Below, piece after piece: positions 43,533 through 58,197 of a DNA stretch of 64,000 nt. Under the pieces are notes generated by a model. That model saw nothing but the letters and a program-made list of their open reading frames with translations, was not told the origin of the DNA and made no database searches. The stretch is from Escherichia coli. GTDB taxonomy: Bacteria > Pseudomonadota > Gammaproteobacteria > Enterobacterales > Enterobacteriaceae. The stretch lies in the NCBI RefSeq assembly GCF_044324875.1, contig NZ_CP172185.1; one strand, given 5' to 3'. Every line of letters begins with the position of its first letter. Position 1 is the stretch's first letter. A program made the position numbers and the translations under genes.

Positions 43533-44009
43533 TTAAAGCAGACCATGTTCGGCAAAGGAGAAAACCTGGCTGCCACCGACTATCAGATGGTCCGGCACCC
43601 GGATATCCACCAGGCCCAGTGCCTGTACCAGACGTTCCGTGATAAGGCGGTCTGCCTTGCTGGGTGTGACTTCACCGGACGGGTGATTGTGCGCCAGCAC
43701 CACGGCAGCGGCATTGTGGTACAGGGCGCGTTTAATCACTTCCCGGGGATGGACTTCCGTGCGGTTGATGGTGCCGGTGAAGAGGGTTTCACCGGCAATC
43801 AGCTGATTCTGGTTGTTCAGATACAGCACCCGGAATTCTTCACGCTCCAGTCCCGCCATGTTCAGAATCAGCCATTCCCGTGCCGCATGCGTGGAGGTGA
43901 AGGCCACGCCGGGTTCATGAAGATGGCGGTCCAGGGCTTTCAGGGCCCGCTGAATGAGGCTGCGCTCTCTGGTTGTCATTTCTCCGGGCAGAAAGGAAAT
44001 CTGTTGCAT
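43533..44009 (-). CDS. RadC-like JAB/MPN-domain protein (YeeS/YkfG/YfjY family)
   Basis: 158-aa ORF with JAMM motif HNHPSGEVTPSKAD. Confidence 0.88.
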   Translation of the reverse strand: MQQISFLPGEMTTRERSLIQRALKALDRHLHEPGVAFTSTHAAREWLILNMAGLEREEFRVLYLNNQNQLIAGETLFTGTINRTEVHPREVIKRALYHNAAAVVLAHNHPSGEVTPSKADRLITERLVQALGLVDIRVPDHLIVGGSQVFSFAEHGLL

Positions 44010-44024
44010 TGTTCCGGCCCCCTT

Positions 44025-44504
44025 TCAGTCAATGATGCGCATAATGGCGCTGCATTCCGGATGCTGCAGGGCGTAATCCCGCAGACGGTAATAATGAACC
44101 GTCATGGCATAACACTCCGTACGGCAGGCGTGATGACTGTACGTCATCAGACAGGCAGCAATGCCGGCGGCTTCCGGGCTCATTTCAGCGCGGTTACCGT
44201 TCATGGCATTGAACAGTACCCATGTTTCGTCATCATCATCATCCGGTTCGGGGGCCATAAATGCCCCGCCGTTGTTCAGGGTGTACAGATTCCAGATACC
44301 ACCGCAGTAGTCTTCGCACAGACGGTCCATCCAGCCGAAGACACTGGGCTCCAGGGTCACCCACTGTGGAATGAGGCCAAAATGCTGCGGCCAGAAGCTG
44401 ATGCGCTGTTCATCAGGGACGAGGCTGGCAACCAACTGAGGCGGATTATTCTCTGGTGTTGTAGCTGAATAAATTGTGGGGGTATTCTGAGAAACGGTTT
44501 TCAT
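44025..44504 (-). CDS. Antirestriction protein (KlcA/ArdB-like, YfjX/YafX family)
   Basis: 159-aa ORF with acidic stretch EPDDDDDE and the conserved C-terminal region of island antirestriction proteins. Confidence 0.85.
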   Translation of the reverse strand: MKTVSQNTPTIYSATTPENNPPQLVASLVPDEQRISFWPQHFGLIPQWVTLEPSVFGWMDRLCEDYCGGIWNLYTLNNGGAFMAPEPDDDDDETWVLFNAMNGNRAEMSPEAAGIAACLMTYSHHACRTECYAMTVHYYRLRDYALQHPECSAIMRIID

Positions 44505-44585
44505 GAGATAACGCCTTAAATAACAAATAAATGTGTGTTTTTCAGGAACGAAAGCTGAATGATTCCCTCACTCAGGGAAACGGCA

Positions 44586-45404
44586 TCAGCGCATGCTCTC
44601 CAGCAGCGTTTCTGCCATCACCCACAATGCGCGGTTGAGTTTTATATCGGTATCAATGCTGTGAATGGCCCGGGTATGGATACGTTTTCCTTTTGCACTG
44701 CGACCGGAAATCCCGCCTTTCAGCATATTCTCCTGGATGGTCTGATAAGCACTCCACAGGTCCTTACCGTAATCCTCCCGGCGTCGTGGTGTCAGAATGT
44801 CGGCGGTGGTGACGGGCTGATGTTCGTCACCATAACGGTAAGTCAGTGCCGCCTGTGCCAGCGCCTGGCGTGCCGGTGGCGGCAGGACCAGCGACTGCAT
44901 GGCATCACGCTTCTCCTCTATCCGGTCAAACACGCCCACCACCTCGTAAGCCCCTTCAATGACTCTGTCCACCACATTTCCCCGGTGCGGAACACGCACT
45001 TCCCCCCGAGACTGACCGCAGACGCATCCGTTCTGGCAGACGAACCTGAAGTAACCCGGCAGCATCTGGTAGCTGGAGGTACCGTCATGAGAGTTGAGCA
45101 GAATAATTTCAGGGACATGTTGTCCGTTTATCTCCCCGTCACGGCGCAGACGCAGCATGTGTTTGGTATACCCCCGGCGACCCGGGTCACGTACGCGGGT
45201 CTGGCAGGCGAAGAATGGCTGAAAGCCTTCCCGCTGCAGGCTTTCCAGCACGGTGATGGTGGGGATGTATGTATAGTTCCGGCTCCGGGAGGTGTGTTTA
45301 TCTTCCCCGAAAATCCCGGGCACATGGTGCATCAGCTCTTCACGGGTCAGCGGACGGTCACGGCGTATCTGGTTCGCATAACCAAAACGACTGGCTAATC
45401 GCAT
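44586..45404 (-). CDS. DUF932-family protein (YfjQ-like)
   Basis: 272-aa ORF, ATG with RBS GGAG; conserved first gene of the antirestriction-radC-TA cassette. Confidence 0.8.
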   Translation of the reverse strand: MRLASRFGYANQIRRDRPLTREELMHHVPGIFGEDKHTSRSRNYTYIPTITVLESLQREGFQPFFACQTRVRDPGRRGYTKHMLRLRRDGEINGQHVPEIILLNSHDGTSSYQMLPGYFRFVCQNGCVCGQSRGEVRVPHRGNVVDRVIEGAYEVVGVFDRIEEKRDAMQSLVLPPPARQALAQAALTYRYGDEHQPVTTADILTPRRREDYGKDLWSAYQTIQENMLKGGISGRSAKGKRIHTRAIHSIDTDIKLNRALWVMAETLLESMR

Positions 45405-45447
45405 ACTTTGCTCCTTATCAGTGGTTAAGACTGAATGACGTAATCAA

Positions 45448-45481
45448 TGAAAAAGCCGCGTCTCACGGAGAAGACGCGGCC
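45448..45481 (-). terminator. Rho-independent terminator after the secreted-protein/small-ORF pair
   Basis: Hairpin gccgcgtct-cacggaga-agacgcggc followed on the minus strand by T5. Confidence 0.5.
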
Positions 45482-45504
45482 TGATGGATGAAATGAATGA
45501 GGGT

Positions 45505-45657
45505 TTACCGAAGCCCTTCAGCATTGTGGTGACGCAACCGGAAATGCGTTCCCTGATCATCTTCAATAAGCACATTGCGGTAAGCTGTTGTGACAGCCAT
45601 CGCCTGTTCGCGTGAGAAAGGGCCTTCGGGCAATAAAACAGGGTGACAGTCCGACAT
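45505..45657 (-). CDS. Small ORF (50 aa), tightly coupled downstream of the 225-aa secreted protein
   Basis: ATG 6 bp after the upstream stop; [41 protein letters not shown]...; below the ORF-track length cut-off; resembles small island proteins but family not verified. Confidence 0.3.
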
Positions 45658-45662
45658 ACCGG

Positions 45663-46340
45663 CTATTTTCCGATAAATTCAACGCTGGCGCCGGTGGCAT
45701 TACCGTCAGCACCAACCGTGACGGTCACTTTGTCGTACGCACGGTCTTCAGGATTGAACACTTCAAACTCAACCTTATTGCCTTTTACTTCGTAAGAGCC
45801 AAAATCAGCGGTTTCTGTTATTTCCTCGTCATATTCCCGGGCGTATGCCTGCCGGGCAGCCTGCAGGACGGAATCTTTATTAATAGTGGTCGTCTGTTTC
45901 GGGGAAAAACCGGCAAGTGATGTGACAAATTTCGGACAGACCTTCAGCATATCACCGCGGGTGAATTCCATTCGTACACCAAATGCCTGTAAAACGGACA
46001 CATCACGCTCTGCTATGGAGTGAACGGCTTTTTTGACCATTTCCGGCGCCTGTCCGACTTCCACCTCAACAGCCCTGAATCCTGTCTGCTGATTACACAT
46101 TTGTGATGTGGGGATCAGGTTACCGTTAATACTGATACGGTTGCCCAGGAGCGTCTGTACGCCATTCGGGCATCCCTGCATCAGGCCGGTAATACCAATC
46201 GTGCCATTTTTCAGCATTACCAGCGCCTGACCATCTTCCGTCATGGTCTGACACCAGCCGTTTTTGACAGCCCAGTTGCCGGCGGAGGCGGAGAATGATG
46301 CCACAGTGAACAGCAGGGGAAAAAGAATTCTGGTATTCAT
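45663..46340 (-). CDS. Secreted/periplasmic hypothetical protein (225 aa) with signal peptide
   Basis: N-terminus [23 protein letters not shown] (signal peptide with AxA-type cleavage site); RBS GAGG; occupies the cargo slot between the GTPase and DUF932 genes. Confidence 0.6.
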
Positions 46341-46458
46341 GACTGACCTCTGAAATTAAAGAGCGTGTTATTGATAATGACAGACGGTATACGGCAGTGG
46401 TTACCGTAATCCGTTGTCGTGTAAAGGTATACGGTTGCCACGGGGGACTCCGGAGCGT

Positions 46459-47343
46459 TCAGAACAGGTGATCCCACAGAGTGACCAGCAGGTGGATAAT
46501 GCGGTCCCGGGTTTTGCGCAGAAGCTGTAACATCCAGGCCGGAAAACTGAAACGGGCAACGGCGTCGTCAAAACTTTTCCCGATGGTTTCACCAAAAGTC
46601 TGTTGTGCGTGTTTCTGGACCCGTTCAGAGCGGTTTTCCCCCCGGATATGTGAATAAACCGCGCTGGTTGCCTGTGGCGGCAGTGCGTGGATCATCAGTG
46701 ACACCAGTGCCGGAATATTCCAGCCGACAGGCGCGGCAACGGGGAGTACCGGAAATGATGAAGGGAACAGGGTTGCCACCCGGGCTGTCACCGTCGCCAG
46801 CGAGAGTTCCTGGTGACGGGACGGGCATTTTTCTGTGTCGTTCCATTCTTCAGCAGGAAATACGCGATCGGCATGGCTGAGAACAAACAGAAAACGCGAG
46901 GGATCTGCACCTTCATTCAGTAAAAACTGATGCATGGCGATGTCGGCAGCATACGCACGTTCATCAGCCCGCAGGATCCAGATAATCAGATCCAGTTCGG
47001 GCAGTAACTGACTGTAAAGTGCCCGGTATTCCTGATCATGCTGTGGTGTTTCGCCAGTGCCGGGCAGATCGACCAGCGTCATTCTTCGTTCACCGGGCTG
47101 AAAGGTAAGACGATGAGCCTGACGGGTGCAGCCGTTCAGCGGATGCGTGGCGCAGACACGGGACTGAAAAATGGCATTGCACAGGCTGCTTTTTCCGGCA
47201 CCGGATTTACCCATAATGCCAATCACGGGCTCGTAATGAATAACACTGTGGAGATGTTCAAGGATTTTCTGGCGAATTTCTTCAGGAAGAAACGTCAGAT
47301 ATGATTTCACTTGTGCGGAGAGGGAAGAATGGCTGAATGACAT
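46459..47343 (-). CDS. YeeP/YfjP/YkfA-family GTPase
   Basis: 294-aa ORF with P-loop GIMGKSGAGKSS and G3 motif DLPGTG; typical lead gene of CP4-type island cassettes. Confidence 0.85.
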   Translation of the reverse strand: MSFSHSSLSAQVKSYLTFLPEEIRQKILEHLHSVIHYEPVIGIMGKSGAGKSSLCNAIFQSRVCATHPLNGCTRQAHRLTFQPGERRMTLVDLPGTGETPQHDQEYRALYSQLLPELDLIIWILRADERAYAADIAMHQFLLNEGADPSRFLFVLSHADRVFPAEEWNDTEKCPSRHQELSLATVTARVATLFPSSFPVLPVAAPVGWNIPALVSLMIHALPPQATSAVYSHIRGENRSERVQKHAQQTFGETIGKSFDDAVARFSFPAWMLQLLRKTRDRIIHLLVTLWDHLF

Positions 47344-47448
47344 ACCGGTATCCTGTTGATTTCACTGAACCGGATCACACTAATCCGGTTTATCATTCAG
47401 GTAATATGGGCGTGAAAAAATCTGGAGTGACAAAGTTCGGGAGGAGTG

Positions 47449-48399
47449 ATGGCATCACTGTCGATTAATACGCTACGCCGAATGAGCATTTGTAAAAGTC
47501 AGGCCTGGAAAGATACCCAGCGAATACTGAAGCGTAGTGGACTTGTGTACAGAGGGGAACGGTCAGAATCGTTTGATCCTGAGAAACATTTTAATCGTTA
47601 TACGGTGCGTTATCTGTACCTGCTTAACATAATTGCGCTTAAGATAAGGTCGGTTAGTAAATTTTCCTGTTGGATCGAGGTGGGACAATGCCATCGTATG
47701 ACTGGTAAACATTTATCTCTTAATGCCCCGCCTTTTATGCTGATTCCGCGTAGTATCCGGAGAAAAGTGGATGGATTCAGACAGTCAAAAGGTGAAGCAA
47801 CCCCAAAATCGGCTCAACCGTTCACGGGCAGTTTGTATGAGGTTTTGAGAAAGGAGAGCGATTCAGCTAAGCTGGACGCATGGATTGCTGAACTGCCTCT
47901 GAACTTGCAGGAGGAGGGAAAGGAAATCTCAGTCATGGGATTTAGTCCACGGGCTGTGGCCCGACCTGTTCTTCGGTCAGCATCCCCGACGTTTGAACTG
48001 TTTTATCAGGAGTATCAATCCCTAAGATTAAAATCTGTTTTTAAATTTGAACCAAGATTTGAACAACTTTTAACAAGACTGAGCTTTAGAAAACAATCAA
48101 TTCTCAGAAAACAACAATACAGGGTTAAATCGCAATTACTGGAGAGACTGGGGAATGTGTTGTTTTTCACGTCGCTTTATAACCAGGGATGTTTAGAGGA
48201 GTTTATAAATGCACTTGTGGAAAAGGAGGACATTTATCTGAAAATGTCCCCTGGGGAGGAAAAGGTGAAAGCACACCAGAAAATGGTTAACTACATTGAA
48301 GCGTTCTGCAACAAAATGACGGAAAAATACCTGATGCCCGCAGCAAGCAGACACTACAAAAAGAAGAAAATCGCCAGGAGCGAAAGTGGTGAAAGTTAA
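47449..48399 (+). CDS. Hypothetical protein (316 aa), low GC, unrecognised family
   Basis: Strong RBS GGGAGGAG 4 nt before ATG 47449; divergent from the GTPase gene; basic and coiled-coil-rich; no motif I can assign. Confidence 0.55.
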   Translation: MASLSINTLRRMSICKSQAWKDTQRILKRSGLVYRGERSESFDPEKHFNRYTVRYLYLLNIIALKIRSVSKFSCWIEVGQCHRMTGKHLSLNAPPFMLIPRSIRRKVDGFRQSKGEATPKSAQPFTGSLYEVLRKESDSAKLDAWIAELPLNLQEEGKEISVMGFSPRAVARPVLRSASPTFELFYQEYQSLRLKSVFKFEPRFEQLLTRLSFRKQSILRKQQYRVKSQLLERLGNVLFFTSLYNQGCLEEFINALVEKEDIYLKMSPGEEKVKAHQKMVNYIEAFCNKMTEKYLMPAASRHYKKKKIARSESGES

Positions 48400-49184
48400 T
48401 CCAGTCTACCGTACAGAATCAGTTGTTCCAGAATAGCCTGCTGTGTTGTTTTCCGCTCTCTGGTCAGTCTGTCCAGAGCGCTTTTTGCGGATGGCGATAT
48501 CTTTACGTTGATTTGTACCCGTTTATCTTTTTTTCCATCGATAAACTGTTTTCTGAATGCATTGTGCATCTTGTCGAAAAATCTTTCTTTTGCAGCGAAT
48601 CCTAGGTGAAATTCTTTTGGCGTCAGTAAACAGGGTGTGTCTGTGGGGAATAACATTTTTAGTAAAACTACAATGGCAATATATCTTTCGTTATCATTTA
48701 CAGGATTAAACCAGGAAAGATATGTGGGTGAGATACGTGCATCAATATATTCCCATGCCCATTTCAGTTGTTCGGTATTCTTTTTAAGCCATTTGGCTTC
48801 GTTTCTCTTTTCGAGTCCCAGCCAGTTTTGATGCATTATTGAGATAATCCGATCTGCTTCCCCATAAAGGATTAACGCATTAATCCATTTCCCTATAACA
48901 TTCAGTCGTGTTTCATGACTTGAAGGAATAATTGTCATGGGGTTATCCTTCATAACGATCACCCCCTTCAAGGCAGAGTTGAACTCAGATTCATTATTAA
49001 GTTTAAGTTTTTCGGGAACTGTATGAGACATAATTAACCAGAACCAGAATGCTGCAATTTCATTTTTTCTGATCCATTCAGGTATGTGATTATCTGCCAG
49101 ATTATTATCATTCAATAAATGCTCAGTTGTTTTATTTTTCCAGTCATATCTATTCACGTTATAACCGCCTTTATATTGTTTCAT
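48396..49184 (-). CDS. Hypothetical protein (about 262 aa), low GC, C-terminal ribbon-helix-helix-like segment
   Basis: ATG 49184 with RBS GAGG 8 nt upstream (the track ORF starts 29 codons earlier); stop overlaps the convergent gene stop by 4 nt; C-terminus KISPSAKSALDRLTRERKTTQQAILEQLI resembles RHH DNA-binding folds. Confidence 0.5.
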   Translation of the reverse strand: MKQYKGGYNVNRYDWKNKTTEHLLNDNNLADNHIPEWIRKNEIAAFWFWLIMSHTVPEKLKLNNESEFNSALKGVIVMKDNPMTIIPSSHETRLNVIGKWINALILYGEADRIISIMHQNWLGLEKRNEAKWLKKNTEQLKWAWEYIDARISPTYLSWFNPVNDNERYIAIVVLLKMLFPTDTPCLLTPKEFHLGFAAKERFFDKMHNAFRKQFIDGKKDKRVQINVKISPSAKSALDRLTRERKTTQQAILEQLILYGRLD

Positions 49185-49804
49185 CTGATTACGCCTCAAT
49201 CGTTTTCTTTTCTGGTGATTTTCACCATCACATGTCAGTTGTATATGCAAGGGGATCAATAAAAATATCACCCTGCAAGCACTTCAAAGCTGATTATGGG
49301 GATATTCTAGAACTATTCACAAAACTATTCCAGACATATCAAGAACTATTTCTTGACCTATTCATAATAAAATAAAACATGCTATCAACTACGGCTCATA
49401 TTCTCCTTGGGGGTGTCGTTGTACTGTTCGACTGTTCTTGTGGTCAGATTAACAATCTGAAGAGTAAAAGCGACAGTAATCTGTCTGTTATAGTGGCGAT
49501 AAAAACACTGAATGCGCATCCTGTATGTGAAATCCTGTCATGTAGAGCAGTAAGCAATGACAGACATGCATGTTATATGTGAAGGGGGCCGGGAGACGAC
49601 ATAATCAGTATGGCTGTCATTCTGGTTGTAAAACGCGATCACTTTCCGGGGGTAAAAGATGATATGGAGGTTGACAAACGGTTTGCTTCGGATTGTCTTT
49701 TCTGGGGCCTGAAATACGAGGGCAGAAAAATAATTCCAGAGTAAATCTGCTCTGTTTTTAGGACAGAAAACTCCATGCTGGCTGTAAAAGTGAAAAATTA
49801 ACAC

Positions 49805-50881
49805 CCAGTATGTATGGAAGTCTGAAGATGTTGAGAATGTCGGTATGATACTATATACACATATTTTACTAAGTATTTTTACTAAGCATTTCAGTAAGTG
49901 TTATACACGTATTTTCTACTAAGTGTTTTACCAGACATACACGTGTTTTCATAAACAGCCCTATAAGTGTTTTCATTAAGCATTGCTGTACACATTGCTT
50001 TGTCTGAAACACATCCAGTTTAGTAAATCTTTACGTTAGCTAAAATCAGTTTAAAGCTGCTGTAAAACCTTTCTGTTTAAGCAATCAATCTGCTATTCGA
50101 TTTTACTGATGTTGCGTTTAACCTTTTCTGAGATTTCGAGTTTCGACGTTAGCATGAGAAAAGTATCTTTACGCTAAATCAACCCGAACTTTCCTGAAGT
50201 AATCTGACGTTTTTTTCGATGTGCTTACGACGATTCTGTTAAACGACTTTCTGGATGTTTTGATAACAATCAGATTGAGGCATTAACGATTCCTGACGTT
50301 TTCTTTTCCGTGTAAGGTCATTCTTTTTGTCATGAGGTTTCTTCTTGCATTGCGAAAGTGTGATGAACGGTTTTGGTGTTTTTGATTCAGATAAGGTTTA
50401 CGTTATCGATGGTTAATCGTTTTTATGGTGCGTAGTGAAACGTAACTTTTTCAGGATGAGAAAATCGATTCTGATGTTGGTGATTTTTGTTCTTGTGGCG
50501 GGGTTTATCTGTAAACAGGTTTTAAACGTGTCATTCACATCCGTGATTGAGTTGTGTGATTAAGCTGTAGGTTTTGGGGTTGTTGTTGATTTGCATTACC
50601 AGGAAGCGTTCTGGTTGCGTTTCTGGTGTTTTGTTCGAATGTTCTGTGGATCCTTTTCCCTTCTGACTTTTCTCGTTGTCCATGTCGTTTTTAAATCCAT
50701 TCGCTGTTCTTGAGTGTTTTTACCCTGCGTGTAGAATTATCTTTTCGTTCCGGGATGGTTTGTTCCGTTTCAATCACTCTTAATCAGAGAGTTGTAGCAT
50801 TGCTCAATGCCGGATGCCGTAAAGTTTTACCGCGGTGATTAATGATGTGAAGTCAATCCAAATCAACGGAGATCTCTCATC
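49805..50881. other. ORF-free, T-rich (plus strand) 1.08-kb non-coding region with repeated short motifs, upstream of the first gpII-like gene
   Basis: No ORF of 60 aa or more in any frame; strong T over A and G over C skew on the plus strand; repeated TAAGTGTTTT-like and TTTTCG/GTTT units. Confidence 0.5.
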
Positions 50882-51613
50882 ATGAATCAACCAATACATA
50901 ATGCTTACTGGTTATCCCGTTTTGACAGCCTTCTCGACAGTGCCCTGGCGCAGCACCGTGCCGTCTCGTTAATCCGGGTGGATTTACGTTTCCCTGAGTA
51001 TATGCCTGTCACCATCATGGATCCCGATCCGGATTCAGCGGTGATTTCTCGTTTTTTTGCATCCCTGAAAGCCAAAATTCAGGCTTACCAGCGGAAAAAA
51101 AGATGTGCCAATCAGCGTGTGCATGCAACCAGCCTGCGTTATTTCTGGTGCCGGGAGTTCGGCAAGGAAAAAGGCAGGAAACATTATCACGTGATATTAC
51201 TGCTCAACAAAGATACCTGGTGCTCGCCAGGGGATTTCACCGTTCCTTCTTCGCTGGCGACACTGATCAAGCTGGCATGGTGTAGCGCTCTGCATCTTGA
51301 GCCCTGGCAGGGTAATGGACTGGTTCATTTTTCCAGGCGGACGCCTTTCCGTAAACCGGCATCATCTGATGCTCGCCCTTCTTCCGATGATACGCCTTTG
51401 TCGGGTGGATGTTCTGATACCAGGAAGGCTTCAGAAAAAAAGCCGGGTGAAGCCGCTGTTCTCTGGATCAAGCGTGGTGATGTGGAAGCGCTGCAGAAAG
51501 CCCGGAACAGAGCCAGTTATCTCGTGAAATATGAGACGAAGCAGCATGACGGTTCCGGGCAACGTAATTATGGTTGCAGTCGTGGGCCGGGGCGTCTGCT
51601 GGATGGCAGGTGA
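50882..51613 (+). CDS. Inovirus gpII-like (YagK/YfjJ-family) protein, putative HUH-type replication initiator
   Basis: 243-aa ORF with HYHVILLL (His-hydrophobic-His) motif; family typical of P4/CP4-like islands. Confidence 0.65.
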   Translation: MNQPIHNAYWLSRFDSLLDSALAQHRAVSLIRVDLRFPEYMPVTIMDPDPDSAVISRFFASLKAKIQAYQRKKRCANQRVHATSLRYFWCREFGKEKGRKHYHVILLLNKDTWCSPGDFTVPSSLATLIKLAWCSALHLEPWQGNGLVHFSRRTPFRKPASSDARPSSDDTPLSGGCSDTRKASEKKPGEAAVLWIKRGDVEALQKARNRASYLVKYETKQHDGSGQRNYGCSRGPGRLLDGR

Positions 51614-51939
51614 GCCCTGTAAAACGACATCCGGTGCCTGAGCTTATGCTACAGGACGTTGGCTGACGCCCTTAGCTCGTTTTCTGAAAAAGTCGTCCTG
51701 AAGTCATGCAACGGTATTTTTCTCTGCTTTCGCTCCTGGAAACACTCCGTCGGTAAAACCTTACTGTCCTGCTTAATGATGTGAACCGAAGTCAACGGAG
51801 ATCATTCATTCTGAACCTGCATCCGGTGTTCTGTCCCTTGTCGGTTACCTGATCTTCCCGTTCTGCCGCGGTTTTTCACTTATTCCATCAACCCCATACG
51901 CAAGCCATAACACGTCAGCGCATCCACGGGCAGGACGCG

Positions 51940-52542
51940 TTGTGGGCTGCGTATAACGGAACATATCTTATGAATGCTATCCCTTATTTCGACTATAGCA
52001 TGGCGCCCTTCTGGCCATCTTATCAGAACAAAATCATCGGCGTTCTCAACCGTGTGTTGCGCGAGCAGTCCTGCTCCCGAATACGGCGGATCCTGCTTCG
52101 TCTGCCGGGGGAACATGGCAACATCTTCAGCGACAGAAAAACCTGGTTCGGTATGGCCTTTATCGAAACCGTCAGTGCGCTGATGAATGCAACCCCCGGA
52201 CGCGACCTCTGCTGGCTCCTGACCCGTCATCCTGAAAAACCGGAATACCACGTGGTGCTGTGCGTCAGACAGGAATATTTCGACGGCCCTGAGCTGGACC
52301 GGTTGATTCTGGATGCCTGGAGCAACGTACTGGGCTTCGCGTCACCGGGTGAAGCAGCACCGTACCAGAAACAGATAACCCGGGATGTGGTGCTGGACAG
52401 TTGTTCACCGGACTGCGAAGAGAGACTCAAAGAGCTGATATGGGCGTTCAGTGATTTCGCCCGCGATCGTCGTGGTGTGCGCGATCCGGAAGCCCGTTAC
52501 CTCGCCGGTAATCCCTGGTATCCCGTAGCAGGCCAGCTCTGA
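51940..52542 (+). CDS. Inovirus gpII-like (YagK/YfjJ-family) paralog
   Basis: 200-aa ORF with EYHVVLCV motif and a similar upstream sequence motif to the 50882 gene. Confidence 0.6.
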   Translation: MWAAYNGTYLMNAIPYFDYSMAPFWPSYQNKIIGVLNRVLREQSCSRIRRILLRLPGEHGNIFSDRKTWFGMAFIETVSALMNATPGRDLCWLLTRHPEKPEYHVVLCVRQEYFDGPELDRLILDAWSNVLGFASPGEAAPYQKQITRDVVLDSCSPDCEERLKELIWAFSDFARDRRGVRDPEARYLAGNPWYPVAGQL

Positions 52543-52610
52543 AAGCTCAGCTCAGCAGATTCACCCGCATTTGCCCAACATTCATAAATCTCACAGAGGA
52601 CATTCTGACC

Positions 52611-52847
52611 ATGTTGACCTCAATGACAGGTCACGACAGCGTATTGCTGCGTGCCGACGATCCCCTGATCGACATGAACTACATCACCAGCTTCACTGGT
52701 ATGACCGACAAATGGTTTTACAAGCTGATCAGTGAAGGCCATTTCCCTAAACCCATCAAACTGGGGCGCAGCAGCCGCTGGTACAAAAGTGAAGTGGAGC
52801 AGTGGATGCAGCAACGAATCGAGGCATCACGAGGGGCAGCAGCATGA
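52611..52847 (+). CDS. alpA: AlpA-family prophage transcriptional regulator (P4-type)
   Basis: 78-aa ORF with MerR-like HTH (ITSFTGMTDKWFYKLISEGHFPKPIKLGRSSRWYKSEVEQWM). Confidence 0.8.
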   Translation: MLTSMTGHDSVLLRADDPLIDMNYITSFTGMTDKWFYKLISEGHFPKPIKLGRSSRWYKSEVEQWMQQRIEASRGAAA

Positions 52848-53596
52848 AACGTGTTGTAATGCCGGTACGCTGGCAATGTGCAAAATACCAGCGTTGGTAT
52901 TGTGGAAATCAGCCCTGTCCCTGGTGCTGGCGACCTGCTGCCCCCGTCTGTCATTCCTCGTTCTTCGCTGTAACAGGCATCGTACCGGTCTCGGCGTGCT
53001 TTCCTGCGTACCGACACCGGTTCAGCAACATTCAAGGGGATCAAATCGTGCAAATAACCGAAACCGTACTTTCAGAGCCGGTGGAAATCCGGCGTTTTAT
53101 TCAGCAGGCGGTGGATCACTGGCCGCGTCTGCTGGCCGTCCACTTCACACTCCATTCGGCAGAAGGAAACATCAACGGACAACAGATTCATGCATTCTGT
53201 ACTTCCTTTTACCGACAGGTGCACGAGCGTATTACTGAACGTAATCACACGGCCAGTCCAGCACCACCGGTGGTATTACGCTGGTTGCGGGAACAACATG
53301 GAGGAGCAACAATGCGATGCCTGTTGCTGCTCAGCCAGACGAGCATTTGCCATCCACGGGTCAGTGCCACGGTTGATGAAGAATGTTCGCAACGGGTGGA
53401 TTTATTGCAACAGACATGGCGGGTGATAAGTGCTGACGGACAATGCCGGGTGGAAAGGTGTTTTCAGGCTGCCCGGGGTGATACATCCGGCCAGTATATT
53501 GCGTTAAAAACAGTTGCATTGTCTCTGGGGTTACCGGTTGTGACCGGTATTACCCATCGCCCGGTACAGCGCTGTACATTGATTACAGCTCAGTGA
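52844..53596 (+). CDS. Hypothetical protein (250 aa), translationally coupled to alpA; possibly a third gpII-like paralog
   Basis: ATGA overlap with the alpA stop; contains AVHFTLHS in a context resembling the other two paralogs; Cys/Trp-rich N-terminus. Confidence 0.45.
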   Translation: MKRVVMPVRWQCAKYQRWYCGNQPCPWCWRPAAPVCHSSFFAVTGIVPVSACFPAYRHRFSNIQGDQIVQITETVLSEPVEIRRFIQQAVDHWPRLLAVHFTLHSAEGNINGQQIHAFCTSFYRQVHERITERNHTASPAPPVVLRWLREQHGGATMRCLLLLSQTSICHPRVSATVDEECSQRVDLLQQTWRVISADGQCRVERCFQAARGDTSGQYIALKTVALSLGLPVVTGITHRPVQRCTLITAQ

Positions 53597-53613
53597 ACAG
53601 CGCTGTTGTGCAG

Positions 53614-53916
53614 TCAACGAGGTTTTCTGTCTTTTCGTCGGTCATTCAGCATCATTAAACGGGTCTCTGCCTCTTTCTGTTCCTGTGGTGTCACTTCCCC
53701 GCACGGCTGACCGTTCAGGTTGTAACGGGCGCCACCTGCTATTAACGCACGGTAATAGCGCGGAGACTGCACATAAGACGCCACTGCTGCATGTAATGTA
53801 CCAGCGCCAAACGCCAGTTCTCGGATGGCGATATCCTGTATCAGGTCGTCAGGTATCCCCACTTTAAGTGGTTTTGTTTTTTTCCCGGTTGAATGACTCA
53901 GGCCAGAGTTCCACAA
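53614..53916 (-). CDS. Hypothetical small protein (100 aa); uncertain, possibly a remnant
   Basis: ORF convergent with the alpA module; an adjacent 64-aa ORF (53931-54125) lies on the same strand, so both may be fragments of one decayed gene. Confidence 0.25.
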   Translation of the reverse strand: MWNSGLSHSTGKKTKPLKVGIPDDLIQDIAIRELAFGAGTLHAAVASYVQSPRYYRALIAGGARYNLNGQPCGEVTPQEQKEAETRLMMLNDRRKDRKPR

Positions 53917-54510
53917 GACGAATAATGCGCTTACGGTTTTTGCTCTGGCGTTTTGTCATGTCGCCACGGTGTTTTATCAGCAGGTTTCTGTTTATCGTTC
54001 AACTGTGGTATCTGGTCACCGGCCTTCATTTTGTATGCTGTGTCCGTTTTATCCTGCAGCGGCGTTGCCGGTGATTTACTGAAAATACCCTGCGGTTTAC
54101 GGTTAATGGTCAGAGTTACCATCAATTTTGTTACCTCGCGCTGTCAATGGAAGTAGTACCTCATCCGATATCTGAAAATGTTTTCCGGTGGATGTTACAG
54201 CGAATTTCATGTAAGACATGTTGTTGTCGGTATTGTTCAGTACTGTGCGTTGTGAGCGTATTCGTTATCAGACAGAGGGGCAGGGAACAAACGTCAGAGG
54301 TTAAGGATATCCGGGAACAAATGGCGTAAACGGACATCTCAGTGCCTGAGAAACAGTACAGGTCAGGCCATCATGGCCTGCAAACAGAGCCCTGGCGACC
54401 CCGTGGCCGAAAACGAAACAATAACCCGCGCGCAGTGCGAGGAATCCGGATGTGAAGCAATCAGCAGGTAATATTAATGGCAGGACCAGCAGGTTCTTTA
54501 AACAAACGAA

Positions 54511-55273
54511 GGTGGTGACTCCAATTAGTAGAACATATATTTTTCGATAAAGGCACCGATGACTTTTTCATGAAGTTCTACAGAGCGCGAGAAACAGATA
54601 GTTCTGCGGGCCAGACGTTTGATTCGGGTTCTCAGAGGTAGATGTTGCGCTCAATGCGCTGAGTAAAAATCTTACCAGTCAGATGCTTCTCCTTCGGTAA
54701 CTCTCTGGTGTAACTACCCCATTCGTCAGTGGTCAACATACCGATGGTAAAAGGGCAAGCAGCGCCAGCAATTCACGACAGGTTTAATCAGTCCGTAGGC
54801 CAAAAGTGTAGGCCAGAACGCCACCAGTTTTCGTGTTGTACGTGTACCAGAGCCAGTGCTGTCGCGCTTTACTGCCGACAAAACTCCATTGCTCATCAAG
54901 TTCGCAGATGAGTGCCATATCAGCATGAGCGACCGGGTATGACGTTATTCTTCGTGGCGAGAGTTTTTTAAAGTCCGGATGACAGTATTAATGCCGATTT
55001 TCAGCGTACGGGCAGTATCGCGAACTCCGGCACCGTTGAAAGCCATTTCAGTGATTTGCTCTTTAACTCCCGGTTTACGGGCCTCGTAACGGTAAGTGAG
55101 CTGAAGCACTCGATGACAGTCACGGCAGCGAAATCGATCATGTCCTTTGGGTTCTTCCCGTGACGGTAAACCTGAACGGACTGGCAACAGGAGCAATGAA
55201 GGTTAACTGTGACCATGAAAGAACCTTAAAAGTGGCTATTATACTCCTAATTCAACTAATTGGAGTCATTACC
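54511..55273 (-). mobile_element. IS1-family insertion sequence (divergent isoform), apparently defective
   Basis: 763 bp; terminal repeats GGTGGTGACTCCAATTAGTAG (left) and AATTGGAGTCATTACC (right); InsA-like and InsB-like coding on the minus strand, each split across two frames. Confidence 0.8.
54945..55216 (-). pseudogene. insA: insA-like gene with internal frameshift
   Basis: Zn-finger N-terminus (MVTVNLHCSCCQSVQVYRHGKNPK) is in one frame and the HTH C-terminus (GHDRFRCRDCHRVLQLTY...AFNGAGVRDTARTLKIGINTVIRTLKNS) in another; downstream InsB-like sequence (...RTRIKRLARRTICFSRSVELHEKVIGAFIEKYMFY) is also split. Confidence 0.6.
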
Positions 55274-55281
55274 GTATTCAT

Positions 55282-55452
55282 AATGGATTAGGTTCAGCAG
55301 TTGCTGAAGTGCTTGTAGAAACTTGTCCTGTGCCCATGCGTCGGGTGGGGGTTAAAGAGCGGTATGGCCAGGTTGAAACTCAGGACTTTTTACAGAGAGA
55401 GTACGGGTTAACCGCGCAAGCTATTGTGGCGGCAGCCAGAGAGCTATTGTAA
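55282..55452 (+). pseudogene. Transketolase C-terminal-domain remnant, truncated by the IS1 insertion
   Basis: Frame encodes ...GLGSAVAEVLVETCPVPMRRVGVKERYGQVETQDFLQREYGLTAQAIVAAARELL-stop, a typical transketolase C-terminal tail, beginning immediately after the IS1 right end with no upstream gene body. Confidence 0.55.
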
Positions 55453-55653
55453 TTCATGGAGTTTGTTTACCATTCTGTTTTTCTTAAAAGTGAGTGTCTG
55501 TGCGGTCACTAAACTCGGTAATAAAGCAGTTCATTGCAGGATAAGAAGCGTTTGGTTGTGTCGTTTTACCGTAAGAACCGACCGCCGTATGTATCCATTA
55601 AGCCAGTATTGGTAACGTAGGTGCCCACCTTTTCAAACTGGTGGGCGCCTGTT

Positions 55654-55826
55654 ATGGAGCAAAAACATTATCCGCAGAACCCCGCAGATCATTTTCAAAT
55701 GAGTTAAACTTCAAATGGTTAAACTGGTTTTGCAACCAGGAGCCTCTGTTGCCCGTATTGCCCGGGAACACGATATCAATGATAACCTCCTGTTCAAATG
55801 GCTCAGACTCTGGCAGAACGTAAGGT
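55654..55826 (+). pseudogene. Transposase helper (HTH OrfA-type) remnant of an unidentified IS
   Basis: Short frames encoding MEQKHYPQNPADHFQMS-stop and ...LQPGASVARIAREHDINDNLLFKWLRLWQ, resembling IS OrfA HTH segments; interrupted by stops. Confidence 0.3.
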
Positions 55827-55904
55827 AAAGGGAGATGAAAAAGGCAATAGCAGAACTGAGTGACAGTGAAACCATTCTGGCGTACAGGGTTGGATGGTGA
55901 AACT

Positions 55905-55938
55905 GATAAAAAACCCTCTGAAAATTCTGTCAGAGGGT
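55905..55938 (-). terminator. Candidate rho-independent terminator (minus strand)
   Basis: Perfect 8-bp stem ccctctga/tcagaggg with 8-nt loop, followed on the minus strand by T6. Confidence 0.35.
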
Positions 55939-56649
55939 GTAGTCAAAAATGGTAGATATTTACGATGCAGTAATGCTTTCACTCCGGTAATTAATTTCCG
56001 TGATTAACTGCTTTCGATCAATAAAGGAATTGCAAAAGTGTGATCTTGTTCACGACATTGTGGATGATAATATGCCTGATGTCTGAATCCGGAAACAGTG
56101 ATCTGGCGGTTTCATGTGAAGTTGACGGATAAAAAATCCGCACGACCAGACAGACGTGCGGTTTACGAAATTCGTAACAAGAGGCTTTTCTACGGATCAC
56201 GTGGTGCGTGCCACGTGAAATTTTTGTAGCGCAAAATGTGTGATGTGTAAATACAAGGAAGGAAAAAAGTTAAATCGGTGGAAGTCCATGCCTGCCACAT
56301 GTATGTCTGCATTCCTCGTTTTGAACAGAATTCTCACCAGACATCGTGAATTTCTCATTCAATCATCAGAGATATTACCCAGGATTTTTATTGTTTTGTG
56401 ATAGCAGTACTTTAAATGTTCAGATGCTAAAATAAGCGCGCTTATTATAATTATAGTTATGATGTTTTATCTGTATGTATTTTAATGATTTTCGCGTCAT
56501 TGCTTTTCTGCTGCTTAAATTGAAGGCGCATATTATACACAATAATATTCCTGGCATTATTAAATTAATAAAAGAGGATTCTTATCACTGTATTTTTGCT
56601 CCGCACTACCGTTCTGGCTGGTGAAGTAATAATACAGGAGAATAACAGA

Positions 56650-58197
56650 ATGCTTAAAAGACGTGATGCTTTTTTAAAGAAAAGCGCGCTGGCAGTGAGT
56701 GTGGCCCTGCTGCTCTCGGCTCAGGCTCAGGCTCAGGATATTTTAATCGGACCGATTGAACCTGGCGAAGATAATAGCTTTCTTGTTGGAGAATCAGTAG
56801 CTGGCCGTTCGATTGATAAAGTAAGAAATGTATGGTTGATTGGTGATGATTCTTTTTTATTAGACTCAAACAGGACTGTGCTTTTGGGGAATAATTCTGA
56901 TGTTGTGAACTCTCCGGGAAGTGTGAGTCTGGGGCATGATGCACTTATTGCTGACTCTGAATGGGGGACTGTTGCAGGAAAAGAAGCGTCACTTATTTCT
57001 TCTCGTCAGAGCTCGGCAATTGGTGCGTTTTCATCTGTGCAGGATTCTACCAGTTCTGTAGCTCTGGGCCATGGCTCACAGGTGTCGGGAGAAAATAACG
57101 TGGTATCTGTTGGTGCCGGGCCTGAGGGATATGGAGAGAGTGTCAAAGGAGCACCGGAAACCCGCCGGATTATAAATGTGTCTGATGGTATCAATAACAC
57201 AGATGCAGCGACGGTAGGGCAACTGAATGAACGATTTGATGATGCACAGGTCTTTTTGTTGCAGACGAATGAAAGAATTGACGAGACAGATAAACGTCTT
57301 TCAACAGTTCATGCTGAACTCAGCAGGGATATTATTGCAGGCACATCGGCAGCGGTGACGTATACAGATGTAACAGCGCTTGCACTTCAGGATGAGATAA
57401 AGGATGGGACGAACAAAGTACGTGATGAGTTGAAATCACAGGGAGACAGTCTGCGTGGTGAGATAGGCGGTGTATACAGAGATGCCCGTGCTCATACTGA
57501 CAGTCAGGTCACAGCAGTACGTGATGAACTGAAGGCAGAGGGAGACAGTCTGCGCGGTGAGATAGGCGGTGTATACAGAGATGCCCGTGCTCATACTGAC
57601 AGTCAGGTTACAGCAGTACGTGATGAACTCAGCAGGGATATTATTGCAGGCACATCGGCAGCGGTGGCGTATACGGATGCATCTTCTCTTGCTCTTCAGG
57701 ATGAAATAAAAGAAAAAGCGGATGAAACAGTTCAGGTTTCCCGGGCTTATACAGATAAAAGTGTACGGGATGCCCGTAAAGAAGCGAAAAGCCAGGCAGA
57801 ACATCTCAGCGATGTGCTTGTGAAGAACAGGGCGCAGACGGATGCAGCAATAGCCTCAAATACAGCAGCGATAAGGAATAACAGTCATCGTCTGGATTTG
57901 ACGGAAGCCTGGCAGAAGATGGCGACAGAGAGAATGAATAATATGCAGGAGCAGATTAAAGAGAACCGGAAGGAGTTAAGGGAGAGTGCAGCCCAGAGCG
58001 CGGCACTGGCAGGTCTTTTCCAGCCATACAGTGTTGGAAAATTTAACGCGACAGCAGCCGTTGGTGGTTACCGTGATGAGCAGGCCATTGCGGTGGGCGT
58101 GGGCTACCGTTTCACAGAGAATGTGGCAGGAAAAGTTGCAGTTGCTGCAGGTGGGTCATCCGCATCGTGGAATGCTGGTGTGAATTTTGAGTTCTGA
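56650..58197 (+). CDS. YadA-type trimeric autotransporter adhesin (515 aa; Eib/Saa-like size class)
   Basis: Signal peptide [29 protein letters not shown], repetitive coiled-coil stalk, and C-terminal YadA-like anchor ending ...[19 protein letters not shown] 9 nt upstream; AT-rich 5' region. Confidence 0.8.
57313..57730 (+). repeat. In-frame tandem and nested repeats inside the adhesin stalk
   Basis: A 105-bp unit (...[33 protein letters not shown]) occurs twice in tandem (about 57424-57528 and 57529-57633), flanked by two copies of a second roughly 100-bp unit ([16 protein letters not shown]...ALQDEIK) at 57313 and 57625. Confidence 0.7.

What the first reader, a model, noticed from the sequence alone, without database searches (positions are those of the whole stretch)
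50821..51806. Shared upstream sequence motif in front of paralogous gpII-like genes
The sequence TTAATGATGTGAA...GTCAA...CAACGGAGATC occurs at 50839-50874 immediately before the first gpII-like gene and again at 51773-51803 before the second. A 9-mer (GTTTTACCG) present at 50824-50832 recurs in inverse orientation (CGGTAAAAC) at 51751-51759. This suggests a duplicated regulatory or recognition cassette, for example a shared promoter/operator or nick-site-like sequence for HUH proteins.
Basis: seen in the sequence. Interest (0 to 1): 0.4.

Follow-up and report, generated by a model that had tools for sequence, protein, structure and literature searches.

The report
Conserved DNA element before two Rep-like genes
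A roughly 70-base sequence (a short palindrome plus two fixed boxes) sits in front of two neighbouring, distantly related rolling-circle-replication-type genes in an E. coli pathogenicity island. It is kept nearly unchanged in thousands of strains, so it is most likely a protein-binding control site, but which protein binds it and what it does remain untested.

Summary
Copy c1 (50817-50886) and copy c2 (51751-51815) form a co-linear repeat of about 65-70 nt with one 5-nt indel (local alignment 41 against 17.0 +/- 2.3 in shuffles).

Two corrections apply:
- The "inverted 9-mer" is an imperfect palindrome (CNGTAA-N4-TTACNG) present in both copies in direct register.
- c2 lies 165 nt upstream of gene 2, not immediately before it.

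Gene 1 is an intact HUH-fold, gpII-like protein. Gene 2 is a very divergent paralogue (hhalign 98%) that has lost the first His and the Tyr.

The element occurs in about 1,900 of 5,426 complete E. coli genomes and in 120 metagenome contigs, and only in two forms. c1 ends 7 nt before the gene-1 ATG. c2 heads the gene 2-alpA-UCP030791 block. Each copy is more conserved than its flanks, and c2 stays fixed across two upstream contexts and three different leaders. No c1/c2 hybrids were seen. This indicates a selected cis-element, not a relic.

No sigma-70 promoter lies on the gene strand, there is no Rfam match, no RNA covariation and no unusual single-strand folding.

Best reading: a double-stranded DNA binding site (operator) for an island-encoded protein. 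A Rep-recognition or origin role is the main rival. Interest is moderate to low. The element is undescribed, but its kind is familiar.

The parts
50817..50886 (+). Copy c1 of the shared element. It contains the palindrome CCGTAAAGTTTTACCG (50817-50832), box A TTAATGATGTGAA (50839-50851), an 11-nt spacer, box B TCAACGGAGATC (50863-50874, including GGAG, which serves as the Shine-Dalgarno sequence of gene 1), and the ATG at 50882.
   Evidence: It is nearly invariant among loci found through the protein. In 59 unique sequences its per-column identity is 0.92-1.0, against about 0.92 in the coding sequence and below 0.85 upstream.
51735..51815 (+). Copy c2 of the shared element. It contains a c2-specific conserved 5' part CCTGGAAACACTCCGT (51735-51750), the palindrome CGGTAAAACCTTACTG (51751-51766), box A (51773-51785), a 6-nt spacer, box B (51792-51803), and CTGAA (51811-51815) where c1 has ATGAA.
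   Evidence: It forms a conserved island (0.86-0.97) inside a variable leader (0.3-0.8, with many indels).
50882..51613 (+). Gene 1: a 243-aa HUH-type, gpII-like (YagK/YfjJ) protein with H101-Y-H103 and Y213-L-V-K-Y217.
51970..52542 (+). Gene 2: a 190-aa divergent, probably catalytically inactive paralogue of gene 1. It has EYH instead of HYH and Asp where the Tyr residues align.
   Evidence: It has no Pfam hit of its own. hhalign against the YagK/YfjJ alignment gives 98.2% probability, E = 4e-14. A relative 36% identical to it matches PF11726. ATG/GTG variation at 51970 supports the start.
52611..52847 (+). AlpA-family helix-turn-helix (excisionase/regulator) gene, one candidate binder of the palindrome.
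   Evidence: It matches PF05930 (E = 2e-10), PHROG excisionase/regulator families and the PDB AlpA-family protein 8c3t.
53048..53596 (+). UCP030791-family gene, the last gene of the block that always follows c2.
   Evidence: RefSeq annotation, PF27752 on a homologue, and synteny in 25 of 25 two-copy loci.
50710..50737 (+). Predicted sigma-70 promoter TTGAGT-16-TAGAAT, the likely gene-1 promoter. Copy c1 would then lie in the transcribed leader, 80-150 nt downstream.
   Evidence: It is the only promoter-like site in 50300-53100 and has the top PWM score, 11.5. It is a local conservation peak (0.71-0.85) in an otherwise variable upstream region.
51653..51672 (+). Hairpin downstream of gene 1 (AGGACGT-TGGCTG-ACGCCCT), a weak terminator-like structure that separates the gene-1 module from c2.
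   Evidence: It did not pass the terminator scan.

Best explanation
The repeat is a functional cis-acting DNA element of about 70 bp, under purifying selection. It belongs to the conserved backbone of CP4-like E. coli pathogenicity islands.

It has three parts: a dyad-symmetric site (core GTAA-N4-TTAC, full form CNGTAA-N4-TTACNG), then 8 bp later box A (TTAATGATGTGAA), then 6 or 11 bp later box B (TCAACGGAGATC).

One copy lies between the predicted gene-1 promoter and the gene-1 start codon. The other lies at the head of the gene 2-alpA-UCP030791 block.

My best reading is that it is an operator: a double-stranded binding site for an island-encoded DNA-binding protein. The candidates are the HUH-fold gp2-like proteins themselves, whose fold is an origin-binding domain, or the AlpA-type HTH protein. 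A bound protein would block or modulate transcription running into gene 1 and into the gene 2-alpA block, so that the two units are controlled together.

Shown here: the repeat, its distribution, its conservation above its flanks, its fixed position and orientation, and the paralogy of the two genes. Inferred: that it acts as double-stranded DNA, that a protein binds it, and which protein that is.
For: 1. The homology is real.

2. There is selection on each copy.
- The 76-nt c1 query is at least 95% identical in 1,852 of 1,895 E. coli records. For the 1.4-kb region, most records fall at 80-95%.
- In unique sequences, c1 columns that the search pattern did not fix score 0.92-1.0.
- c2 is a conserved island of 0.86-0.97 in a leader that otherwise scores 0.3-0.8.
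- c2 stays constant while the sequence upstream of it is either the tail of the 243-aa gene or a 188-aa paralogue, and while the sequence downstream takes three different leader forms.

3. All 144 c1/c2 copies in the 120 metagenome contigs (145 pattern matches; the other, L078 with a 14-nt gap, is a chance match) are of type c1 or type c2. There are no hybrids, so gene conversion does not explain the similarity.

4. The coding regions share no detectable DNA similarity and only 16% protein identity, yet the element is about 77-85% identical between the copies.

5. The dyad core is invariant, while the outer arm positions vary without compensation. That pattern fits protein recognition and not a hairpin.

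6. Related dyads occur in the same module elsewhere.
- CTGTAAGTTATTACCG lies about 80 nt upstream of the 188-aa gp2 paralogue.
- CTGTAAAGTTTTACCCGG lies between gp2 and alpA in Providencia, whose gp2 is only 39% identical.

7. A conserved promoter-like site lies upstream of c1.

8. Gene 1 has the fold of origin-binding nickase domains.
Against: - No binding protein is identified, and no expression data were available.
- No promoter was found upstream of c2. In the 188-aa context c2 follows the preceding stop codon by about 45 nt, so its regulatory logic rests on read-through transcription, which is an assumption.
- The conserved stretch is long for one operator. It includes an SD-like GGAG and a (C/A)TGAA that have no obvious role in double-stranded DNA at c2.
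- The metagenome sample was selected by exact box A and box B. Conservation of the boxes themselves therefore rests on the smaller protein-anchored set and on the BLAST identity bands.
- The sequences are mostly E. coli and closely related, so some of the conservation is shared ancestry.
Confidence: 0.45

Rival explanations
1. The element is a Rep recognition sequence, meaning a rolling-circle origin or nick site, or a vestige still bound by the proteins. The HUH protein of gene 1 would bind the dyad and boxes and nick nearby, as inovirus gpII does at the (+) origin that lies just upstream of gene II. c2 would be a second binding or termination site.
For: - Gene 1 keeps H-Y-H and the conserved Tyr, and models as an HUH nickase/origin-binding fold.
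- The element abuts the rep-like gene and is not promoter-like on that strand.
- Its dyad-plus-flanking-boxes layout resembles the layout of HUH origins. This comparison rests on established knowledge, not on a test here.
- The two direct copies bracket gene 1 plus 0-10 kb of variable genes.
Against: - Two same-orientation origins on one replicon would generate deletions or mini-circles. This follows from established knowledge of f1 double-origin plasmids.
- c2 travels with gene 2, which lacks the first His and the Tyr, and not with gene 1. Many loci have gene 1 and c1 without c2 nearby.
- Single-strand DNA folding is unremarkable, with z between +0.1 and -1.95.
- The hairpin loop would be only 4 nt, and the arms show no compensatory change.
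- There is no evidence that these islands replicate.
Confidence: 0.2
2. The element acts at the RNA level or through an antisense transcript. It could be a leader structure in which box A (AUGAUG) pairs with a downstream CAUCA to enclose the SD. Alternatively it could be the shared target or promoter of an antisense RNA, possibly working with the adjacent ProQ/FinO-family protein.
For: - In c1 the minimum-free-energy fold pairs box A with the start-codon region.
- In c2 leaders, UGAUG/CAUCA and GAACYG/CRGUUC can pair, with one C-G to U-A double change in 6 sequences.
- A weak promoter-like arrangement on the minus strand is present in both copies: -35 TTCACA, the complement of box A, followed after 16-17 nt by TAAGTT, TAAGGT or AAAACT within the dyad.
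- A ProQ/FinO gene lies next to the module.
Against: - There is no Rfam match.
- Folding z-scores are only -1.6 to -1.95.
- Covariation does not exceed shuffles (128 of 500), and only one pair shows it.
- PWM scores of 7.7-8.5 occur about 1.9 times per kb per strand by chance.
- No terminator for an antisense RNA was found.
- The ProQ/FinO gene is frameshifted in this strain.
Confidence: 0.15
3. c2 is a non-functional relic. It would be the leftover 5' end of a decayed third gp2-type gene, or a passive duplicate, and its similarity to c1 has no function.
For: - c2 has CTG where c1 has ATG, and it keeps an SD-like GGAG with no ORF behind it.
- The islands are mosaic and rich in pseudogenes.
Against: - c2 is more conserved than the leader on either side. 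It persists across two upstream contexts and three downstream leader variants.
- Its own 5' part, which is not shared with c1, is equally conserved.
- No c1/c2 hybrids exist that would indicate homogenisation by gene conversion.
Confidence: 0.08

Closest known systems
Intergenic (+) origin of Ff/inovirus phages, just upstream of gene II, and similar HUH origins (pMV158 dso with RepB; parvovirus/AAV Rep-binding elements)
   Same: - A non-promoter element of about 70 bp, with dyad symmetry and flanking conserved boxes, lies directly in front of a gpII-like HUH gene.
- In AAV the same Rep-binding element occurs at more than one place, in the terminal repeats and in the p5 promoter, and serves both replication and autoregulation. 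This is established knowledge.
- The gene-1 model is closest in fold to those origin-binding nickase domains.
   Different: - No sequence relationship to any known origin was shown.
- The dyad has 6-bp arms and a 4-nt centre, too small to present a nick site in a loop.
- There are two direct copies per island, and one of them is tied to a paralogue without catalytic residues.
- No replication of these islands is known, and nicking is untested.
Palindromic operators shared by co-regulated neighbouring transcription units (classical repressor/operator arrangement)
   Same: - It has dyad symmetry with an invariant core.
- It recurs at two adjacent units in the same orientation.
- It lies downstream of a predicted promoter.
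- It is conserved above its flanks.
   Different: - No cognate regulator is known.
- The conserved block (about 70 bp) is far longer than one operator.
- No promoter was detected for the second unit.
LexA (SOS) box CTGT-N8-ACAG
   Same: The spacing and outline of the dyad are the same (CNGT-N8-ACNG). K-12 CP4-6 carries a perfect CTGTAATTTATTACAG in the equivalent module upstream of yagM, and the 188-aa paralogue has CTGTAAGTTATTACCG.
   Different: c1 (CCGT...ACCG) and c2 (CGGT...ACTG, or ACCG in other strains) lack the T and A of the CTG/CAG triplets. By established knowledge LexA needs these, so c1 and c2 do not qualify as SOS boxes.
Antisense-RNA control of replication-initiator leaders with FinO-domain chaperones (FinP/traJ; Inc RNA/repZ with FopA)
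   Same: A Rep-like gene has a conserved leader, a ProQ/FinO-family gene lies next to the module, and a weak convergent promoter-like site lies inside the element.
   Different: There is no evidence of an antisense transcript, no terminator and no covariation. The ProQ/FinO gene is a pseudogene here.

Membership tests
HUH endonuclease / inovirus gpII-like Rep (YagK/YfjJ, PF11726): gene 1 | Family profile match above the curated cut-off | tested here: met
   PF11726 scores 121.3 bits against a cut-off of 25.8. PF23343 scores 39.1 bits against 27.8.
HUH endonuclease / inovirus gpII-like Rep: gene 1 | HUH metal-binding motif and a conserved catalytic Tyr | tested here: met
   H101 and H103 are invariant in a 17-sequence alignment, and the consensus is YLAKxxTK. 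Gene 1 has HYHVILLL and SYLVKYETK. Catalysis itself was not tested.
HUH endonuclease / inovirus gpII-like Rep: gene 1 | HUH nuclease fold | tested here: met
HUH endonuclease / inovirus gpII-like Rep: gene 2 | Homology to the family | tested here: met
   hhalign of A2 against A3 gives 98.2% probability and E = 4.3e-14 over 151 columns. A relative, P0197, matches PF11726 at 41.8 bits. Gene 2 itself has no Pfam hit.
HUH endonuclease / inovirus gpII-like Rep: gene 2 | HUH motif and catalytic Tyr | tested here: not met
   Gene 2 has E92-Y93-H94 in place of H-Y-H, and Asp residues align with Y213 and Y217 of gene 1. It is a homologue, but probably not a nuclease.
Rolling-circle origin / HUH nick site | Lies next to the gene of its initiator | tested here: met
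   c1 ends 7 nt before the gene-1 ATG in every one of 71 copies.
Rolling-circle origin / HUH nick site | Single-strand hairpin or other structure presenting the nick site, maintained in evolution | tested here: inconclusive
   A 6-bp dyad with a 4-nt centre is present. Arm changes are not compensated. Single-strand DNA folding z-scores range from +0.1 to -1.95.
Rolling-circle origin / HUH nick site | One functional origin per replicon (direct duplicates are unstable) | tested here: not met
   Two co-oriented copies lie 0.9-10 kb apart in 25 loci.
Rolling-circle origin / HUH nick site | Site-specific nicking by the cognate protein | not testable with these tools
   This needs purified protein and oligonucleotide or plasmid substrates.
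Sigma-70 promoter | -35 and -10 hexamers at 16-18 bp spacing on the gene strand | tested here: not met
   The consensus scan finds only 50710-50737. A PWM scan finds nothing within c1 or c2 on the + strand. The minus-strand sites score 7.7-8.5, which is the background level of 1.9 per kb per strand.
Palindromic transcription-factor operator | Dyad symmetry with a conserved core, recurring at co-regulated units, conserved above its flanks | tested here: met
   The core GTAA-N4-TTAC is near-invariant across the 144 c1/c2 copies. It lies upstream of both units.
Palindromic transcription-factor operator | A cognate DNA-binding protein and a regulatory effect | not testable with these tools
   The candidates are the gene-1 and gene-2 proteins, the AlpA-like HTH protein and UCP030791. 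No binding or expression data were available.
Curated cis-regulatory RNA / sRNA (Rfam) | Covariance-model match or covariation-supported structure | tested here: not met
   No Rfam match covers the element at E <= 1 in 44000-60000. RNAalifold finds 1 covarying pair of 38. For the named helices, 128 of 500 shuffles reach the observed covariation score.
LexA (SOS) box | CTGT-N8-ACAG | tested here: not met
   c1 reads CCGT-N8-ACCG and c2 reads CGGT-N8-ACTG or ACCG.

The most novel reading that the evidence does not exclude
The c-elements are the recognition or nick sites of a domesticated family of HUH (gpII-like) proteins in E. coli pathogenicity islands. Initiation at c1 and termination at c2 would release or copy the segment between them. 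That segment is gene 1 plus 0-10 kb of variable cargo, which differs between strains exactly at this interval. This would be a rolling-circle cassette-exchange mechanism inside genomic islands, with the catalytically dead paralogue (gene 2) and AlpA acting as regulators.
Probability: 0.08. Interest if true: 0.8.

Novelty: new member of a known kind. Interest (0 to 1): 0.35.

Why it matters
The gp2-gene 2-alpA-UCP030791 block is part of the backbone of a very common class of E. coli and Shigella genomic islands, present in roughly a third of complete E. coli genomes here. None of its genes has a known function. A sharply defined, strongly conserved 70-bp site placed in front of both HUH-type paralogues gives a concrete experimental handle. 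It can be used as bait for the binding protein, as a reporter target, and as a substrate for nicking assays. If it is an operator, it defines the regulatory circuit of the module. If it is a Rep site, these "cryptic" islands would have a rolling-circle activity that could explain why cargo varies at this interval.

Tried and rejected
1. A general YagK/YfjJ upstream motif: K-12 yagK and yfjJ upstream regions lack it, and K-12 YagJ (also 243 aa) is unrelated.

2. Species-representative genome scan with the gene-1 protein: it returned only 2 loci, both E. coli-like. This route did not give a cross-genus upstream comparison.

3. Distant gp2-alpA modules (Providencia, Morganellaceae, Brenneria, unnamed metagenome contigs): no box A or box B was found, and there was no consistent shared motif between the gp2 and alpA upstream regions. 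The exception is the Providencia dyad.

4. Viral-contig scan for the dyad GTAAAGTTTTACCSSG: it gave 73 hits, about the number expected by chance, and none lay next to gp2 or alpA genes. The box pattern found one viral contig, of c2 type.

5. nhmmer profile of the element against all fetched loci: no extra diverged copies appeared inside the cargo, so there is no attC-like array.

6. Coding potential of c2: rejected because of the stop after 13 codons and indels that are not multiples of 3.

7. RNA structure: the anti-SD CUCCGU/ACGGAG helix, the dyad hairpin and the box A helices all pair, but only because they are conserved. Covariation is not above the controls.

8. Other recalled consensus sequences (CRP, Fur, sigma-28, sigma-54, sigma-E, IHF, and the phiX174 and f1 nick sites) were compared by eye only. 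Partial resemblances were not shared by both copies or were not testable, and I give them no weight. Examples are TAAAGTTT in c1 and CTTGAT..TAAT in many c2 copies.

9. Literature: nothing was found on this element or on the function of these gp2-like proteins. The P. aeruginosa AlpA antiterminator is a different, larger protein with a GGGACG site.

10. PDB sequence search: it found no solved relative of the gp2 family.
Full report
**Where the window comes from**

The window matches E. coli chromosomes almost exactly. It is 99.9% identical to strain SCU-115 (NZ_CP054368.1) over the queried 2.8 kb. The finding lies in the backbone of a CP4-like pathogenicity island next to ynjB. One side of the island carries the YeeP-type GTPase, DUF932, KlcA, RadC, YeeU and CbtA block. 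The other side carries IS remnants, the aerobactin (iuc) genes and the sit genes.

The local gene order on the + strand is:
- 1.6 kb without credible genes
- gene 1 (50882-51613)
- gene 2 (51970-52542)
- an AlpA-family HTH gene (52611-52847)
- a UCP030791-family gene (53048-53596)
- a ProQ/FinO-family pseudogene on the opposite strand

**Checking the observation**

Box A (TTAATGATGTGAA) and box B (TCAACGGAGATC) have no other exact copy in the 64 kb.

The repeat is longer than reported. Copy c1 runs about 50817-50886 and copy c2 about 51751-51815. They are co-linear, about 77% identical, with one 5-nt indel between the boxes. A local alignment scores 41. Dinucleotide shuffles give 17.0 +/- 2.3 with a maximum of 30, and none of 1000 reaches 41.

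The "inverted 9-mer" is not a separate feature. Each copy begins with an imperfect palindrome, CCGTAAAGTTTTACCG in c1 and CGGTAAAACCTTACTG in c2, and the two align in direct register. In other strains the palindromes are perfect: GCGGTAAAGTTTTACCGC and CGGTAAAAACTTACCG.

Copy c1 runs straight into the gene-1 start. The GGAG of box B is the Shine-Dalgarno sequence, and the ATG follows 7 nt after the box. Copy c2 lies 165 nt upstream of the gene-2 start. It has CTG where c1 has ATG, and the sequence after it is non-coding: a stop follows after 13 codons, and other strains have 12-13-nt indels there.

**The genes**

Gene 1 is a clear YagK/YfjJ ("inovirus Gp2") protein.
- It matches PF11726 at E = 5e-35 and PF23343 at E = 9e-10, and PHROG replication-initiation families.
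- It keeps H101-Y-H103 and the conserved Tyr of the family consensus YLAKxxTK.
- No solved structure is related by sequence.

Gene 2 has no Pfam hit and shows no significant BLASTP similarity to gene 1. Even so, a profile of its few relatives matches the YagK/YfjJ profile at 98.2% probability, E = 4e-14. One relative, 36% identical, matches PF11726 directly. Gene 2 is therefore a true but very old paralogue. It has EYH in place of HYH, and Asp where the Tyr residues align, so it is probably not a nuclease.

**Distribution and anatomy of the element**

Both copies are widespread in E. coli. Copy c1 is found in 1,894 of 5,426 complete genomes and c2 in 1,876, with up to 7 places per genome, nearly all on chromosomes.

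A pattern scan of metagenome contigs (box A, 4-14 nt, then the first 9 nt of box B) returned 120 contigs with 145 pattern matches. All but one fall into just two types. One has an 11-nt spacer (c1) and one has a 6-nt spacer (c2). The exception, in L078 with a 14-nt gap, is a chance match.
- Copy c1 always sits 7 nt before the ATG of a 243-aa-type gp2 gene.
- Copy c2 always sits about 185-220 nt before gene 2, which is followed by alpA and UCP030791.
- The two copies always have the same orientation.

An nhmmer profile found no further diverged copies in any fetched locus. K-12 yagK and yfjJ do not have the element, so it is specific to this sub-branch of the family.

The window shows only one of the possible arrangements. 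In 13 of the 25 two-copy contigs, c1 and c2 are about 930 nt apart, as here. In the other 12 they are 4-10 kb apart. The interval then holds unrelated genes, followed by a third, 188-aa gp2 paralogue that ends about 45 nt before c2.

Other islands have gene 1 and c1 followed by unrelated cargo and no c2 nearby. Homology breaks at ...CTTCCG| after gene 1 and resumes at |CTCCTGGAAAC before c2. Copy c2 therefore belongs with gene 2, not with gene 1.

**Is it selected?**

The evidence says yes, for each copy separately.
- In loci found through the protein, and so without bias towards the motif, c1 is nearly invariant, while the sequence further upstream drops to 0.4-0.7 identity.
- In BLAST, c1 is at least 95% identical in 1,852 of 1,895 records, whereas the surrounding 1.4 kb is mostly 80-95% identical.
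- In 59 unique c1 sequences, the columns not fixed by the search pattern (dyad, 11-nt spacer, the 3' part) score 0.92-1.0. The coding sequence scores about 0.92.
- In 65 unique c2 sequences, the element and a c2-specific 5' extension (CCTGGAAACACTCCGT) form an island of 0.86-0.97 in a leader that otherwise scores 0.3-0.8 and is full of indels.
- One group of strains has an essentially different leader after ...TCATTCACC but an unchanged c2.

No c1/c2 hybrid exists, so ongoing gene conversion does not explain the similarity. The proteins have diverged beyond BLAST detection while the element remains 77-85% identical. Passive inheritance is therefore very unlikely.

**What kind of element is it?**

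Several options were tested.
- Promoter. No sigma-70-like promoter lies on the gene strand within either copy. The only good site in the region is TTGAGT-16-TAGAAT at 50710-50737, which is also a local conservation peak. That places c1 in the transcribed leader of gene 1.
- Antisense promoter. A weak site on the minus strand occurs in the same register in both copies. Its -35 is TTCACA, the complement of box A, and its -10 lies inside the dyad. However, such scores occur about 1.9 times per kb per strand.
- Known RNA. No Rfam family matches the element.
- RNA structure. RNA folds are unremarkable, with z-scores of -1.6 to -1.95. RNAalifold finds one covarying pair. For the helices I named (anti-SD with box B, the dyad hairpin, box A with CAUCA, and GAACYG with CRGUUC), pairing is high only because the columns are conserved. 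Covariation does not exceed shuffles, with 128 of 500 reaching the observed score.
- Single-strand DNA structure. Folding is not unusual.
- The dyad. The GTAA-N4-TTAC core is near-invariant. Outer arm positions change without compensation, giving variants such as TTACCA, TTACTG, TTACCT, TAGTAA and CAGTAA. This pattern fits recognition of double-stranded DNA by a protein and not a hairpin.

Related dyads occur in equivalent positions elsewhere:
- CTGTAAGTTATTACCG lies about 80 nt upstream of the 188-aa paralogue.
- CTGTAAAGTTTTACCCGG lies between gp2 and alpA in Providencia, sharing a 13-mer with c1. That is very unlikely by chance in a 150-nt spacer.
- A perfect CTGTAATTTATTACAG lies upstream of yagM in K-12 CP4-6.

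In more distant genera the ancestral pair is gp2 followed directly by alpA. Gene 2 with its c2 leader therefore looks like an Escherichia-lineage insertion ahead of alpA.

**Interpretation**

I commit to a cis-acting, double-stranded DNA binding site (operator) recognised by an island-encoded protein. One copy lies between the gene-1 promoter and its start codon. The other lies at the entry to the gene 2-alpA-UCP030791 block, so the two units would be controlled together (confidence about 0.45).

The candidate binders are the HUH-fold proteins themselves, whose fold is an origin-binding domain and whose inactive paralogue could act as a pure DNA binder, or the AlpA-type HTH protein. Binding, and the identity of the binder, are inferred and not shown.

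The rivals, in order of confidence:
1. A Rep recognition or origin function (about 0.2). The intact HUH protein and the "directly upstream of the gpII-like gene" position favour it. Against it are the two direct copies per island, the association of c2 with the catalytically dead paralogue, and the absence of any single-strand structure signal.
2. An RNA leader or antisense mechanism (about 0.15). It is possible but has no positive statistical support.
3. A relic (about 0.08). The conservation pattern contradicts it.

**Novelty and score**

I found no description of this element in Rfam or in the searchable literature. It is an undescribed member of a familiar kind: a conserved protein-binding or regulatory site shared by paralogous genes. 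It is useful mainly as an experimental handle on a very common but functionally blank island module. Interest is 0.35.

The most novel reading not excluded is that c1 and c2 are HUH sites that bracket and mobilise gene 1 plus variable cargo by a rolling-circle mechanism. I give it about 0.08 probability and high interest if true.

**Caveats**
- The metagenome sample was ascertained by exact boxes, so box conservation rests on the smaller unbiased set and on the BLAST identity bands.
- Nearly all sequences are from E. coli, so relatedness inflates conservation.
- Only the best BLAST place per genome could be retrieved.

Noticed in passing
window 49272-50881: This is 1.6 kb with no credible ORF, upstream of gene 1. 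It is AT-rich. It has iteron-like direct repeats at 49852-49990 (families D3, D4 and D8) and a GTAAATCTTTAC palindrome at 50023. A conserved sigma-70-like promoter lies at 50710-50737. It could be a regulatory, H-NS-bound or origin-like region.
   Followed up: partly
window 51653-51672 (compare L017, L010, L013): This is the hairpin after gene 1 (AGGACGT-TGGCTG-ACGCCCT). In other loci the stem is the same, but the loop is the exact reverse complement (TCAGCCAA against TTGGCTGA). That is the signature of quasi-palindrome template-switch inversion.
   Followed up: no
between window 51730 and the equivalent of c2 in L039, L044, L059, L065, L068, L073, L081, L082, L086, L093, L096, L124: In other strains the interval between gene 1 and c2 holds 3-10 kb of unrelated genes plus a third, 188-aa gp2 paralogue. 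The break points recur, at ...CTTCCG| and |CTCCTGGAAAC. This interval is a hotspot for cargo variation in the island backbone.
   Followed up: partly
window 53614-54122 (-): A ProQ/FinO-family gene lies next to the module and is frameshifted in this strain. It is intact in L004. It hints at RNA-level control somewhere in the module.
   Followed up: no
L007 8907-8926 (E. coli K-12 CP4-6, about 110 nt upstream of yagM): A perfect palindrome, CTGTAATTTATTACAG, fits the LexA-box outline CTGT-N8-ACAG. It is related in form to the dyads of c1, c2 and the 188-aa paralogue.
   Followed up: no
L019 4616-4633 (Providencia heimbachae, between gp2 and alpA): CTGTAAAGTTTTACCCGG shares the 13-mer GTAAAGTTTTACC with E. 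coli c1, although the gp2 proteins are only 39% identical. In this and other distant genera, gp2 is followed directly by alpA, with no gene 2 between them.
   Followed up: partly
window 59070-59186 (+): An ALIL pseudoknot (RF01497, 116 bits), the programmed-frameshift signal of an IS3-family transposase. It is unrelated to the finding.
   Followed up: no
window 51955-51975: The ribosome-binding region of gene 2 (AACGGAACATATCTTATGAAT; AACGGAG in many strains) resembles box B plus the start of c1 (AACGGAGATCTCTCATCATGAAT). It may be a partial third copy, or the original translation signal displaced by about 160 nt of inserted leader.
   Followed up: no
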